In this document: one piece after another, positions 27,584 to 62,078 of the stretch
Numbering within the stretch: position 1 is the first letter of the stretch
How the letters are laid out: every line of letters begins with the position of its first letter
NCBI RefSeq assembly: GCF_036588685.1
Contig: NC_086382.1
Location: forward strand, 24,614,001-24,678,000
Direction: 5' to 3'
DNA from: Mytilus trossulus
Taxonomy: Eukaryota
Length of the DNA stretch: 64,000 nt
Notes under the pieces: generated by a model
Database searches by the model: none
What the model was told of the DNA's origin: nothing
Seen by the model: only the letters and a program-made list of their open reading frames with translations
Translations under genes and position numbers: made by a program

Positions 27584-29272
27584 GTAAGCCACATATGTAT
27601 GTTAAGTAAACAGGTATTCATCAAGGAATAACTGATGCAGACAATGCAGGCTTGAATTGCCCTTAAGTTGCGAAGTACTGATATATCTAATCTTACTTTC
27701 ATAACTTCTGAAATCATTCTGAAATATGTAGGGGATGGAACAGTGTCCTTGGTGAATGTTGTTTGAAAATTGTATAAACATTTTAAAAATCGATATCATA
27801 TACCTACTTTACACAACAAGGTCGGTACAACGATTGATAGATAAACAGTTCCCGCGGGAACTATCCTTTCAGCATGTTCAGAAGCAAGACTTAGTGTTCT
27901 TGTAACATATACTTGAATTATCAATACTTTCCAAAATGACGGAACAAAAGCAGTTGTACGGTATACGAAACAAGACAATAGCCCAATGACACACAACAAA
28001 AAAAAATAAGTCTGCAAGAATCAGCATACGAGTCTAGATCGGTAATGAATAGAAAAACGCTCTGCTCTTATTATATCAATCACCCTATGCCGAAGACAAT
28101 AATACAAAGACACGACAAGTACGTAATTAGAACTTAAAGGTTTCATTGCTTGTTTATAATGAGGACTCGTGAATTATAAGAGAGAAGTAGTACAAGTATG
28201 TATAAGGAATGCTTAGTTTGCCTATAAATTATATGGAATTTTTTATCTCTTCAATGTAGTGCATTAAGCTGCATGCATCTCCCTCAAAGACCGTTAGACT
28301 GACAACAACTTCATTTTTTTCAGGAAACTTCACTTAGATTTCTTTTGATAAAAAGCGTCAAGAAATCTTATTTAAAGACAACTTATCTACTACTACTATT
28401 ACTTGATGATATCAAGCCATTATAAACCTTACTCTTAGCACTTAAGACATTAAGATAATGGTTTTCTCTTGACACGTTTTGTGTAAATATTCTGCAAAAA
28501 GCACTTCAAAATGTATACATGAAGTATATCAACCTTTTTTATATAATGTATATAAATAACTGGAGATGTGTTTACACTTTAGCACATCAAACTATAAGAT
28601 ATCTAGTACAAATTAAAACTTACATTCCGGAAATCCGGGGTTGGACTTGTTTTAATAATTAAATAGATTTGATAATAGTTGAATTTATGTTAGATTTTGT
28701 CGAATTTGTTACTAGCATGTTTTAAGGGGGAAAGTTGGTATGTACAATGGATGTATGTGGTGAAAGATTGAAGAAATCTGTGGATTTTTTAATACATTTT
28801 GTGTTCATATAAATATATATAATGTATATGTATTGTCAGCTGAATCTTAGATTGCATTGTTTTCTTTCCAGAAAATGCGAAACAATAGAATATAGGGAAG
28901 TGAAAAAGTCACAGAGTGAAGAAATACTGCACGGAAAAGATAAGCTGATTGTTTGACGCAATTAATTAAGTTTCCAGTTTCCTGTTTGCGGGAAAAGACA
29001 ACTTGTAAACAACAAAGTTTTAAGAAAAGTGCAGTATTGATATTTTATATATTATATATTCACTCTAAGTTCAATGACTTTTCCAGAATAACGATCCGAT
29101 ATCTTTTCATTATTCAGCGACTTTATATTGATTATCAGAAAAAAAGTGCGAGACATATATGATTGACCGTGCATCTCGGGATTTATCGTTAAGTTAAGGT
29201 GTGTTTCTACAGGAAAACAATAATTATGACAATACAGTTTTAAACTAAAGTGGTTAAGGATTTTGCATAAAA

Positions 29273-30334
29273 ATGTCGACCACCTCAAGTTTCACAGTAT
29301 CAAACCCGATTGATATTACTAGTAACGGAAGCTCTCAAGAGGCTTCCTATTGTACTACCGAGGAAATTGTTTCGTTAAGGCGACATCATCGTGTTAAAGA
29401 TGGAATTAAACGTTTGACAGAAAAGTATGATTCTATTGGTAACTTTATTCCAATGACTGGACGACCGCCGAGTATAGCATCTTTGAAAAGTGCAAAAGAA
29501 GAAAGAGAAAGACTTGCTTCTTTTGGATCTAATGGGTCAACTAGTATCAGTCAAAGCCCATCACGAACTTCATTTGCTGAAGGGATTAGCGAGCATGATT
29601 TGCTGCAAGTTGAAATGTTTTACCGGAGTCATAAGACTGATGTTCATGTATGTCCAAGTTTAGCTAATTTGTACTTTGGAAAAGTTGTTGGAAACAAAGA
29701 CAAATGGAAATTCGCAATGACCGGAATACCTGTTCTGGTACTCGACACAGGAAAACACCAGCGTGACCGGAAGTTACATGTTATTCTTGCCGAAAAAGGT
29801 ACAGGATTCGTGCTTTGGAAAGATAAAGTAGATCAACTTACAGCATATAAAGCTCCTCATGCCAATTTCCACACGTTGCACCTGTCAACAGATCATACTC
29901 GTTTAGCAGGATTAAGTTTTGACGATAAAAAGGGGGCTGCAGAATTTGTCAAAAAATATTTGGAATACACATCTGATCCAGATGATGAACTACTCAAACT
30001 GAGTAAAGGAAAGAAGAAAAAAGTGAAAACTGAGAAACCTAAAAAATTCAAACCACCGAAGAAAACGGAAATTTCACAGCCATGTTGTTTTGTTCATGTG
30101 ACTAAGCTCGAAAATTCTGCTATGGAGAACTTACATAATAATAAAAGTGTCATATCTGGTCCAGTAGCATTCGAAAATTTACTGGATGTACACGATAAAA
30201 GAGAAAAAGACAGTTTAGAAGTTTCGAGTCTTCTTGGAAGTAAACTCACTATAAACAGTGATATAAGTTCTACCGTGTCTGAAGATCCAACCTCGGTTTC
30301 AAGTTATCAGTCAGAAAAGGGAATTCCGGACTGA
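29273..30334 (+). CDS. EVH1/WH1-like domain protein with basic region and CRIB-like motif (353 aa; possibly related to Drosophila MESR3)
   Basis: Long non-repetitive ORF in AT-rich DNA; LY...W...G.PVL.LD...LW...Y....FH......AGLSF pattern typical of WH1 folds; Lys-rich tract followed by ISQPCCFVHV. Confidence 0.85.
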   Translation: MSTTSSFTVSNPIDITSNGSSQEASYCTTEEIVSLRRHHRVKDGIKRLTEKYDSIGNFIPMTGRPPSIASLKSAKEERERLASFGSNGSTSISQSPSRTSFAEGISEHDLLQVEMFYRSHKTDVHVCPSLANLYFGKVVGNKDKWKFAMTGIPVLVLDTGKHQRDRKLHVILAEKGTGFVLWKDKVDQLTAYKAPHANFHTLHLSTDHTRLAGLSFDDKKGAAEFVKKYLEYTSDPDDELLKLSKGKKKKVKTEKPKKFKPPKKTEISQPCCFVHVTKLENSAMENLHNNKSVISGPVAFENLLDVHDKREKDSLEVSSLLGSKLTINSDISSTVSEDPTSVSSYQSEKGIPD

Positions 30335-43940: not shown

Positions 43941-45104
43941 ATGGAGAAAGATATCTTAGATGGAGTTGAACATGTTGAAAGGGACAGCAAAGAAAGTCTG
44001 AATTCTAAATCTTTTGATACCTTTGGACCAGATGAAAATTTTGTGCCTACAGTTTTAGACTTTATTAACAATGAAACACCTGAAAGTAATATTAAAAGTG
44101 ATAAAAATGAAACAAATTTGTCACAAAATACAGAAAATGACCAAGCTGACAGAAATACAATTTTAGAAGCTTGTGAGACAAAACTAAACCAATCGACATC
44201 CTCTGGTAAAAATGAGAATGTGGTAAAATCTACAGAGGATTTAGAATCTAAACCACACACATTGTTGACAAATGATAAAACAATTCTGGATCATGCCAGT
44301 GTCAATGTTAATGATGAAGATGAAACTTGCAAAACATGTTCCAAAGAGACTATTTCTTCATTGACAAATGAAATAACAATCCTTGATCATGCCAGTATCA
44401 ATGTTGATGACCAGGATCAAACTTCCAAAACAATTTTAAAAGGCACTATTCAACCTATTTCTTCATGTTCAGAAAATGAGAGTTTTGGTTCACTCCAGAT
44501 AAATGTTGATGACAGAATTTTGTCAAGTGAAAAACTTCAAAAAGCTGTGGATAAAATTATTGAAGAAGATATGGAAATTGATTCATCTGATATCGATGTT
44601 CCCCATGTTCAAGAGAAGACCAATCCATGGGAACTCTTAGAAGACTCTTCCTTGTGTTCTAATGAGGTCACATATATTAGTGAAAAAGACAAAGTTGACA
44701 AAATTGAAGTTACAGATGACATTTATGATATTGATAATGATGTTCATCAAGAAACAACGCATACACCTTCCTTACAAATGTTAAGAAAAGATCAAAAGAA
44801 AGAAAGGTCAATCTTTCAAGGTCAAGATGACAGCTGTCAGGCTGCTGGAGACAAAACTAGTGAGGATTTATCTTTAAAGCAGGTTAAATGTATAGACACA
44901 AAATTGAAACCTGTTTCTGAATTAGGAATCAAGAAACTAGGACTTTCAAAGCAATCAAAAACTTCTGAAGACGTAACTGAAAAGCTAAGAAAAGAAAAGC
45001 TTTCTCATACTGTAGATAAGAAGAACAAAAATCAGAAAGTTGTTTATATTTACAGTAAGGAGCTGATTCAGATTTGTGATCAGATGCAGAAAATACCTTG
45101 TAGA
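43941..45104 (+). CDS. HDAC8: HDAC8 coding exon 1 (long acidic N-terminal extension + VYIYS...IPCR)
   Basis: C-terminal VYIYSKELIQICDQMQKIPCR matches HDAC8 [21 protein letters not shown]; phase-0 donor AGA|gtaagt; start ATG inferred. Confidence 0.85.
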
Positions 45105-52716: not shown

Positions 52717-52794
52717 GTGTTGAAGATGCATTTAGTGCTACATCAAAAGTTATGACTGTTTCCTTCCATAAGTACCTTACAGGATTTTTTCCAG
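52717..52794 (+). CDS. HDAC8: HDAC8 coding exon 6 ([26 protein letters not shown])
   Basis: AG/GT bounded, 78 nt. Confidence 0.97.
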
Positions 52795-52953
52795 GTAAAA
52801 AAATATTTACAGTTCTGTTGATATTTAAAGCTAAACAAAAATGCTGAAGGTATGTTCAAAGGATGCCATGAGGAAGACAACATATTTCTTTTATATAGAT
52901 AAACCCACCACAGTAATATGTGTTTTTAGTGAAAGCAGTTGTGATGGATCAAA

Positions 52954-53065
52954 ACATCAATAGTTATGACTGTTTTCTTCCATAAGTACCTTACAGGATT
53001 TTTTTTATAGATAAACCAACCACAGTAATCTATGTTTTAAGTGAAAGCAGTTGTGATGGATCAAA
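52954..53065 (+). repeat. Local duplication containing a partial, splice-dead copy of HDAC8 exon 6
   Basis: 52954-53005 matches 52740-52790; 53006-53065 matches 52894-52953. Confidence 0.85.
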
Positions 53066-53286
53066 CCAAACACTTTTAAACATGTTAAATTGGTATTTGC
53101 TACTTCTCAAACAATCACAAATTACTTGAGAGTTAGTTGGCTCAGAATTAGTAAACTGTGTCTAGGTAGGGTGACAGGTCTAACTGTTTTCTCAAGAGCT
53201 TATATGTTAAAGAGAAATTCAGTGTGTCTTTCTGGTACACCTAAGCAGGGTATATTCATAATTCATGTTATTGTCCTAGATGTGAA

Positions 53287-53647: not shown

Positions 53648-53756
53648 GAACAGGAAGTTTGGATGACATTGGAATAGGTAAAGGTCAATACTATACTGTC
53701 AATGTTCCATTGTTGGATGGCATTAAAGATACAGAGTTTACTCCATTAGTTTGTAG
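53648..53756 (+). CDS. HDAC8: HDAC8 coding exon 7 ([27 protein letters not shown]...)
   Basis: AG/GT bounded, 109 nt. Confidence 0.97.
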
Positions 53757-53954
53757 GTATGGCAAATATACCTAAAGAAAAACATGAATGGTTTTAAATT
53801 AAATACAGTATTGAAAAAAAATACAGTTATTCATGTTTAACTATATTTTGATTATCATTTTTATTCATTATCATCTTTGAAGGTTTTGTAGATGGCCAAA
53901 ATGTCAACACTTTTTCAACAAAGACTACCTTTATTTTACATTTTCTAGTGGGTG

Positions 53955-55294: not shown

Positions 55295-55467
55295 AATTCT
55301 GAATAAGGTGAAAGAAACATTCCGTCCTGAGGTTGTCGTCTGCCAATGTGGAGCAGACGGATTAGCTGGTGATCCAATGGAATCATTTAATTTAACACAC
55401 AAAGGACTGGGAAAGTGTCTGTACTTCCTTTTACAGTGGAATCTTCCAACATTGGTTTTAGGGGGAG
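55295..55467 (+). CDS. HDAC8: HDAC8 coding exon 8 (ILNKVKETFRP...GADGLAGDPM...LVLGG)
   Basis: Third Zn-ligand Asp (GAD); DPM Met typical of HDAC8; 173 nt. Confidence 0.96.
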
Positions 55468-55724
55468 GTATGTACTTCCTGTTACAGTGGAATCTTCCAA
55501 CATTGGTTTTAGGGGAGGTATGTACTTCCTGTTACAGTGGAATCTTCCAACATTGGTTTTAGGGGGAGGTATGTACTTCCTGTTACAGTGGAATCTTCCA
55601 ACATTGGTTTTAGGGGGAGGTATGTACTTCCTGTTACAGTGGAATCTTCCAACATTGGTTTTAGGGGAGGTATGTACTTTTGTTACATTGGAATCATTCA
55701 ACATTAGTTGTAGGGGAAGGTAAA
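55420..55724 (+). repeat. 50/51-bp tandem repeat (6 units) spanning the exon 8 3' end and donor
   Basis: Unit tgtacttcctgttacagtggaatcttccaacattggttttagg(g)ggaggta. Confidence 0.95.
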
Positions 55725-56997
55725 TACTATTTGAATGTTGTACATGTACAGTTGCCCATTTTTTCAAATGACAAATTATTATATAAAAGTATTATTGCAA
55801 AATTGAAACAACAAAGGTAACCAGCAAGATGAATAGTTAAACAGTATATGACTTTTTTTCAATAACATTTCAAACAAAACAGTTGATATAGAAATGCTGC
55901 CAGCAGATATTTTTTTTGTGTCAGAGACCATGGAGACAGAATAGAATAATTTTTAATCAATGTTTATTAAATTATCATTTCGGATTTAGAAAATTTCAAG
56001 TTATTGCAGATTCTTAAATTCTTGTTAAATAAAGAATTTTGAATGTAATACATGTAGTAGTACATACTTTACAAAAATTAGATAATTATAATGAAACATT
56101 TTAATTTTTGAGCAAGTATATTTCTAAGATAGCAGTCCAAGTTAATAGATATTGGTCTAAATGAGGATAAAGGCTAAAGGAAAACTATTTAGTCTGTAGT
56201 CTGATATCTAGTATTTGTGTTGAATTTTTTTCTGATATTTGTTATCTTTGTTTTATCCATTTATATATAATTAGTGGCCATTAAAAATTTTGCCTGCTAA
56301 TTTCTACTTTTCTTTTTATTGTTTTATTGCATGTAGTTTAAAAAGATATTCTTTAAATCTTACAAAATCCTTGTTTTCTTCTTAGTTTTAGAAAAATGAA
56401 AAAATCTAGATAGAATCATTTTTGTCAAATTTTTAAGTGAATATATATCAATTTTTACCATACATTTTGTAGTAAAAACAGTAGTTCTGAATATTTGATA
56501 AATAGCCTGCTGTTTAATCCATATTGCACAACTTTGATGCATACCATTTATCATTCCCTTTATCACATCCTTTATCACAAACGTACTCATTTTTATTTTT
56601 TTATACATGAACTTGTTTTAATTTATGCGAGCCTCTTCAGAATTTTTGTCCCTCTAAATGGGTCCTAAATGAACAGTCATTCGGGTGTGACAAAATTTAT
56701 TAAATGACGTCATTGTTTGGAATGTGACATCAAAAACGTTGAGTTTTCATATTTCTGACACATGATATGCAACTATAAAAAAGAACTCAATGAAATACCT
56801 AAAGGCCCTCTGGCTGATCAATATTGGTATCTCGGGATTATACGGCAAATGATAGGGATTTTGCCATGTATTCTTCTTTTACTTCCTTGTTAATTTGAAA
56901 CAGATCTATGAATACCCTTAAAGGATCAGTATGGTTGATTGTTAAAAAACAATACCTTATGTTTAGAGTGCACTCCATTTTTGTGATTTCACTTTAT

Positions 56998-57169: not shown

Positions 57170-57264
57170 GTGGATACAATTTAAGCAATACAGCCAGATG
57201 TTGGGCATTTCTTACAGCTTTAGCCACAGGGAAACAAATACCTACAGAGATTCCTGATCATGAG
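57170..57264 (+). CDS. HDAC8: HDAC8 coding exon 9 (GGYNLSNTARCWAFLT...EIPDHE)
   Basis: Catalytic Tyr in GGGGY; 95 nt. Confidence 0.97.
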
Positions 57265-62043: not shown

Positions 62044-62078
62044 ATAATATCAGCAAGATCTGTACTGAAAAGTGTTAG
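62044..62078 (+). CDS. HDAC8: HDAC8 coding exon 11 (NISKICTEKC*)
   Basis: Strong acceptor (T)n-gcag, phase-compatible, resembles the HDAC8 end NLKHVV; TAG stop. Confidence 0.85.

What the first reader, a model, noticed from the sequence alone, without database searches (positions are those of the whole stretch)
55420..55724. VNTR that multiplies the HDAC8 exon-8 splice donor: one productive and five decoy 5' splice sites
The unit is the last 48 nt of exon 8 plus gta, recreating GAG|gtatgt at 55468, 55518, 55569, 55620 and 55670, and AAG|gtaaat at 55720. Offsets from donor 1 are +50, +101, +152, +202 and +252. Four-G units break the frame and read-through hits TAG at 55560-55562, so every downstream donor yields a product lacking the exon-9 catalytic Tyr (likely NMD). 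Each unit also has an acceptor-like tacttcctgttacag. An allele with a 51-nt second unit would instead insert 17 aa in frame beside the GGGGY loop. Repeat number and G-run length could therefore tune HDAC8 dose (inference).
Basis: partly seen in the sequence, partly recalled or inferred. Interest (0 to 1): 0.7.

Follow-up and report, generated by a model that had tools for sequence, protein, structure and literature searches.

The report
Repeated splice donor in mussel HDAC8
In a mussel's HDAC8 gene the end of exon 8 and its splice signal are copied five more times into the next intron, but spliced sequence assembled from four likely-RNA runs uses the first, genuine signal, so the spare copies are likely harmless, an ordinary example of a repeat type already known from human and lancelet genes.

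Summary
The array is real: six 50/51-bp units at 55420-55722, the first being the last 48 nt of Mytilus HDAC8 exon 8 plus GTA, with donors at the stated places. It is not an assembly artefact: two independent DNA runs carry it, two others lack it. In 4 of 4 likely-RNA runs laid, the spliced contig joins donor 1 to exon 9. Contigs drop rare and decayed transcripts, so a small leak is untested. This is a known kind: human F7 intron 7, where only the first donor is used (PMC1557585), and lancelet 'mirages' (PMC3087553). Such duplications are common here: 4 of 79 other exon matches that I checked have one, and this scan noted at least eight more arrays in this genome (unchecked). Best reading: a lineage-specific, near-neutral duplication with silent spare donors. 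Dose tuning of HDAC8 has no support. Corrections: donor 2 stops in exon 9, not at 55560; copy-number variation was not measured.

The parts
55295..55467 (+). HDAC8 exon 8 (173 nt); eighth coding exon of the 11 mapped in the window
   Evidence: tblastn; Pfam PF00850; best PDB matches HDAC8 247-303; contig joints 53756/55295 and 55467/57170; spliced CDS = P0023
55420..55722 (+). Minisatellite, six units of 50/51 bp, first unit spanning the exon 8/intron 8 boundary
   Evidence: TRF score 529; unit alignments
55420..55470 (+). Unit 1: last 48 nt of exon 8 plus GTA (five-G)
55465..55473 (+). Donor 1, GAG|GTATGT (intron starts 55468): the donor used
   Evidence: joint to 57170, GT..AG, in 4 of 4 likely-RNA runs
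55471..55672 (+). Units 2-5 (50, 51, 51, 50 nt); each differs from unit 1 by one T>G, units 2 and 5 also by one G fewer; donors at 55518, 55569, 55620, 55670; acceptor-like CAG ending 55487, 55537, 55588, 55639
55560..55562 (+). First in-frame stop (TAG) for read-through and for donors 3-6
55673..55725 (+). Degenerate last unit (8 mismatches and 1 gap against unit 1) with donor 6, AAG|GTAAAT (intron-side G at 55720)
   Evidence: two haplotypes of this unit in run X1
55463..55481 (+). Predicted 7-bp hairpin over donor 1, made by the duplication junction; repeated at donors 2-4, weaker at 5, absent at 6
   Evidence: ViennaRNA in 30-nt windows: -10.2, -8.1, -10.2, -10.2, -4.2, -0.5 kcal/mol; prediction only
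57170..57264 (+). HDAC8 exon 9 (95 nt), carrying the Tyr of the GGGGY loop; TAA 57182-57184 is the stop in donor 2's frame
   Evidence: Y306 role from PMC9456347 passages

Best explanation
A local tandem duplication copied the end of HDAC8 exon 8 and its splice donor five times into intron 8, and the spare donors are likely ignored, so the array is likely a near-neutral passenger. Shown: the anatomy; donor 1 is the joint in the spliced contigs; the array is present in some mussel DNA runs and absent in others. Inferred: it arose by slippage at a short imperfect match (GTCTGTACT in the exon, GTAAATACT at the old intron start) in one Mytilus lineage; inner units were kept alike by repeat turnover while the edge unit decayed; exon definition or 5'-to-3' first-come selection picks the upstream donor; rare mis-splices carry premature stops and would be removed by nonsense-mediated decay.
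For: Joint at donor 1 in 4 of 4 likely-RNA runs laid (3 studies); in three of them the depth in the bin 55426-55582 equals that of the spliced contig's 40 bases alone and the next bin, which the joint skips, is empty. 7 of 7 Mytilus HDAC8 records spanning exon 8/9 have one copy of the motif (gene models, weak evidence). DNA runs X1 and X2 carry the array; X9 and X10 go from exon 8 straight into an unrelated intron start, so it is not conserved across these mussels. Inner units differ from the exon copy by 1 substitution and at most 1 gap, the edge unit by 8 and 1, the turnover pattern described for mirages (PMC3087553). 4 of 79 other exon matches have a two-copy boundary duplication. Precedent: F7, LMNB2 and PDGF use only the authentic donor (PMC1557585 Introduction).
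Against: The RNA evidence is contigs at depth 7-44 from runs only guessed to be RNA; contigs drop rare variants, 12 joints were not shown, and decayed transcripts would be missing anyway. Run X23 has a depth-6 contig inside the array, which may be unspliced RNA, DNA or a downstream-donor transcript. Donors 2-5 equal donor 1 in sequence (7 of 9 consensus positions); donor 6 matches 8 of 9 and is predicted open while donor 1 is predicted in a hairpin. In two human genes of this build (6-16/IFI6, CBS) two pseudo-donors are used as well (as cited in PMC1557585). All mechanism data are from mammals or lancelet, none from molluscs.
Confidence: 0.78

Rival explanations
1. Leaky but unregulated (IFI6/CBS type): donor 2, or the open donor 6, takes a minor share of transcripts, which are degraded; the cost is tolerated and not selected for.
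For: Identical donor sequences and a predicted hairpin over donors 1-4 but not 6; depth-6 contig inside the array in X23; IFI6 and CBS precedents as cited in PMC1557585.
Against: No listed joint from donors 2-6 in 4 runs. X23 also has depth about 5 in intron 7, which fits unspliced RNA or DNA. Exon 7's real donor is predicted about as buried as donor 1 (7-8 against 5-8 kcal/mol to open) and is used.
Confidence: 0.16
2. One reading: repeat number and G-run length are a working, allele-dependent dial on HDAC8 dose or loop structure.
For: Every downstream donor gives a premature stop in this allele; unit variants exist between animals; some human tandem repeats are associated with splicing changes (PMC10078293, passages).
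Against: Array absent in 2 of 4 DNA runs laid; no alternative joint listed; no record with an insertion among 7 Mytilus proteins; boundary duplications are common in this genome, so no special role is needed; copy-number variation not shown.
Confidence: 0.04
3. The unit's CAG acts as an acceptor and makes short pseudo-exons; three routes to donor 55670 (30, 81, 132 nt) keep the frame and would lengthen the GGGGY loop, a first step of intron gain.
For: Frames computed; intron-gain model proposed for mirages (PMC3087553).
Against: Same motif is read through inside exon 8 (55436); each CAG lies only 20 nt behind a donor; no such joint listed and no such protein among 7 records.
Confidence: 0.02

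Closest known systems
Human F7 intron 7 (IVS7) 37-bp VNTR; Borensztajn et al. 2006, PMC1557585 (read: abstract, synopsis, Introduction, Discussion, reference passages)
   Same: First monomer spans the exon-intron boundary; 5-9 identical donors compete for one acceptor; the upstream donor is the one found in spliced product.
   Different: F7's unit is mostly intronic (4 exon + 33 intron nt); here it is 48 exon + 3 intron nt, so it also repeats coding sequence and an exonic CAG. F7's exclusive use of donor 1 was tested with 50 constructs; here only contigs.
Amphioxus 'mirage' minisatellites (Adh3, globins BflGb6/BflGb9); PMC3087553 (read: passages on 'mirage' and 'minisatellite')
   Same: Tandem copies of an exon boundary in an invertebrate; regular splicing kept; inner units homogenised, edge unit excluded.
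   Different: Mollusc instead of cephalochordate; length instability shown there, not measured here.
Human 6-16 (IFI6) intron 2 and CBS intron 13 minisatellites (known here only as cited in PMC1557585; originals not read)
   Same: Same build.
   Different: There two pseudo-donors are used as well; no such use was seen here.

Membership tests
Exon-intron-boundary minisatellite (F7-type / 'mirage') | Tandem array whose first unit spans an exon-intron boundary | tested here: met
Exon-intron-boundary minisatellite (F7-type / 'mirage') | Splice signal repeated in the intron | tested here: met
   five GAG|GTATGT and one AAG|GTAAAT; 7 and 8 of 9 consensus positions, against 5-7 for the gene's ten real donors
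Exon-intron-boundary minisatellite (F7-type / 'mirage') | Regular splicing kept: main product uses the authentic site | tested here: met
   4 of 4 likely-RNA runs laid; dominant form only
Exon-intron-boundary minisatellite (F7-type / 'mirage') | Inner units homogenised, edge unit diverged | tested here: met
Exon-intron-boundary minisatellite (F7-type / 'mirage') | Copy number varies between alleles | tested here: inconclusive
   present in X1, X2, absent in X9, X10; unit variants in X1 and X23; short contigs cannot count copies
F7 subtype (silent pseudo-donors) | Downstream donors unused even at low level | not testable with these tools
   only contigs were offered; needs raw or long reads with decay blocked
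IFI6/CBS subtype (leaky pseudo-donors) | Transcripts from downstream donors detected | tested here: inconclusive
   none listed in 4 runs, 12 joints not shown, one unexplained depth-6 contig in X23
Regulatory unproductive-splicing (poison) element | Conserved across related species | tested here: not met
   absent directly behind exon 8 in 2 of 4 DNA runs; criterion from my own knowledge
Regulatory unproductive-splicing (poison) element | Regulated inclusion that rises when decay is blocked | not testable with these tools
   no such data available
HDAC8 (class I histone deacetylase) | Hist_deacetyl domain, HDAC8 as best match, GGGGY loop | tested here: met

The most novel reading that the evidence does not exclude
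The duplication buried the authentic donor in a new hairpin and left an open, better-matching donor 252 nt downstream, so array-bearing alleles lose a measurable, genotype-dependent share of HDAC8 transcripts to decay. Array-bearing and array-free alleles could meet in hybrid mussels and give a natural same-nucleus test of how an invertebrate picks among identical donors.
Probability: 0.08. Interest if true: 0.45.

Novelty: new member of a known kind. Interest (0 to 1): 0.17.

Why it matters
Little on its own: it adds one mollusc case to a known class. Its modest use is as a test bed: five identical donors, an array-free allele in related mussels, and synonymous exon-8 differences that mark the alleles would let one ask whether upstream-first donor choice holds outside mammals. 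The broader point, that boundary duplications look frequent in this mussel genome (4 of 79 exon matches here), may deserve a genome-wide count more than this locus does.

Tried and rejected
Assembly artefact: rejected; run X1 differs from the window at 55388 and 55409 at full depth yet carries the array, with two haplotypes of the last unit, and X2 crosses donor 1 into unit 2. Dispersed repeat or transposon origin: rejected; one locus only. No RNA holder is listed on record for the stretch; the six RNA labels are guesses and their shares were 0.06-0.11; I laid 4 of those 6 and 4 of the 18 other runs. Intron-8 start of the array-free runs sought in the window: 0 matches at up to 3 mismatches. 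Metagenome scan for the junction: 0 hits, uninformative. Copy number from contig depth: not used, the tool says depth is no copy number. Whether X2 carries only five-G units (the in-frame allele): cannot be told from an 81-nt contig at depth 12. Hairpin as an explanation of donor choice: it covers donors 1-4 alike and exon 7's real donor is as buried; the whole-region z of -3.17 is expected to be inflated by the repeat. Other arrays of the window (8 viewed): no exon boundary evident by eye, not tested against proteins. Literature: 'Mytilus + minisatellite + exon-intron' gave one unrelated abalone paper, 'HDAC8 + Mytilus + splicing' one general paper, 'CBS + 31 bp VNTR' none; seen as listings only. 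PMC306954 (6-16 minisatellite) is not held. No supplements were opened. My first two translations were off by one base (for exon 8, for exon 7) and were redone.

Full report
Setting. The window is G000:C10:24614001-24678000 of a 1.30-Gb genome. The exon at 55295-55467 matches Pfam Hist_deacetyl, has HDAC8 as its best solved-structure match (residues 247-303) and is 100% identical to Mytilus HDAC8 records. Exons 1-10 spliced with donor 1 give an open frame identical to P0023, labelled Mytilus trossulus, over 513 of 513 residues compared; exon 11 starts at 62044. Exon 8 has one DNA match in the genome.

Observation. TRF finds 55420-55722, period 51, 6.0 copies, score 529. The units are 51, 50, 51, 51, 50 and 50 nt. 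Units 2-5 differ from the exon copy by one T>G, units 2 and 5 also lack one G; the last unit has 8 mismatches and a gap. Donor 2 gives a frameshift ending at TAA 57182-57184, 80 nt before the end of exon 9; donors 3-6 and read-through end at TAG 55560-55562. With two more introns downstream these would be decay targets (established rule, my knowledge). The loop's Tyr (human Y306, G302GGGY; PMC9456347 passages) is in exon 9. The junction pattern occurs 5 times in the genome, all here.

Is it real, and how widespread? Of 18 runs not labelled RNA I laid 4. X1 covers all 30 bins, has two haplotypes of the last unit and a variant inner unit, and differs from the window at two exon-8 places at full depth, so it is another animal. 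X2 has an 81-nt contig crossing donor 1 into unit 2 without differences. X9 and X10 leave the window's sequence at 55470 and go on with an unrelated intron start (donor GAG|GTAAGC), so they have no array behind exon 8. Organism labels do not track this cleanly: X10 and X23 share a label, yet X23's exon 8 is window-like (1 difference) and X10's piece has 14. Copy number could not be counted.

Which donor is used? I laid 4 of the 6 runs guessed to be RNA (3 studies). Each has one contig, depth 7-44, that joins exon 7 to 8 and exon 8 to 9, the latter skipping 1702 nt, GT..AG, from donor 1. No joint from donors 2-6 is listed; 12 further joints were not shown. In X19, X20 and X22 the depth in bin 55426-55582 (2.1, 2.79, 1.8) equals the spliced contig's 40 bases alone by my arithmetic, and bin 55583-55739 is empty. 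X23 has a depth-6 contig inside the array with two variant letters; it also has depth about 5 in intron 7, so unspliced RNA or DNA is the simplest reading, but a downstream-donor transcript is not excluded. Contigs drop rare variants and decay would hide the products, so this shows the dominant form only. 7 of 7 Mytilus HDAC8 records that span the junction have a single copy of the motif; the eighth, P0020, ends before exon 8. These are gene models, not independent evidence.

Results that cut the other way. Donors 2-5 are identical to donor 1 (7 of 9 positions of MAG|GTRAGT); donor 6 has 8 of 9, and exon 2 uses the similar GAG|GTAAAT. The duplication junction makes a predicted 7-bp hairpin over donors 1-4, with donor 6 open (under 1 kcal/mol to open, against 5-8 for donor 1). 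Exon 7's real donor needs 7-8, so the hairpin is within what this gene tolerates.

Origin (inferred). The exon has GTCTGTACT at the jump-back point and the sequence at donor 6 reads GTAAATACT, a 6-of-9 match that could seed slippage. Donor 6 shares GTAA with the array-free intron start, so the last unit likely carries the old junction.

Base rate. I ran TRF on 80 Pfam-matched stretches of G000: all 23 HDAC matches and 57 of 136 kinase matches (left out: a duplicate locus, 18 fetched copies from tandem kinase arrays, and matches not fetched). Without this locus, 6 arrays overlapped a matched frame; 2 lie inside long frames and were dropped; 4 of 79 matches have a two-copy duplication across an exon boundary: L014 and L068 keep a GT donor in the copy, L019 lost it, L007 copies an acceptor. 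By family: 3 of 22 HDAC, 1 of 57 kinase. Boundaries were judged by eye; the sample is small and not random. The scan's notes list eight more donor arrays in this genome and others in other animals; I did not check them.

Comparison. The build is that of the F7 intron 7 VNTR, where only the upstream donor is used although the others work when it is mutated, and where frame does not decide use; the same paper cites LMNB2 and PDGF (authentic site only) and 6-16 and CBS (two extra sites used) (PMC1557585: abstract, synopsis, Introduction, Discussion read). Lancelet 'mirages' are the invertebrate precedent: regular splicing kept, inner units homogenised, edges excluded (PMC3087553 passages). Four of five features tested are met; copy-number variation is open. 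I found no paper on this locus in searches, which cover only the held open library.

Verdict. Real, ordinary, new member of a known kind. Silent near-neutral passenger 0.78; minor tolerated leak 0.16; dose-tuning device 0.04; pseudo-exon route 0.02. Interest 0.17.

Noticed in passing
window 52954-53004: A 51-nt copy (96%) of the 3' part of HDAC8 exon 6 (52740-52790) sits in intron 6 between two 68-nt direct repeats (52889-52956, 53001-53068) and stops just short of the donor; looks like a templated insertion.
   Followed up: partly
window 53753-53758: A GT 4 nt upstream of the exon 7 donor would give a product ending FTPLV*, the exact end of record P0020 (isoform X2, labelled M. galloprovincialis). 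A possible minor unproductive isoform unrelated to the array.
   Followed up: partly
window 43941-45104: Mytilus HDAC8 has a long (about 370 aa), acidic, fast-diverging N-terminal extension in exon 1 with an internal 96-nt duplication at 44265-44450; 65-76% identity to other Mytilus records against near 100% in the catalytic exons.
   Followed up: no
window 55467-55475: Read-through into unit 2 gives GGGMY, placing a Tyr in the same register as the catalytic Tyr of GGGGY; likely chance.
   Followed up: no
L014:1584-1877, L019:1561-1718, L068:911-1044, L007:1590-1764: Two-copy duplications across exon boundaries in three other HDAC-family exons and one kinase exon.
   Followed up: partly
G000:C1:26001466-26027886, C3:16309078-16365028, C4:20128862-20149986: Long tandem arrays of near-identical kinase-domain units with periods of about 1.7-1.9 kb.
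   Followed up: no
window 29258-30334: Single open frame of 358 codons with a weak WH1 match below the Pfam cut-off.
   Followed up: no
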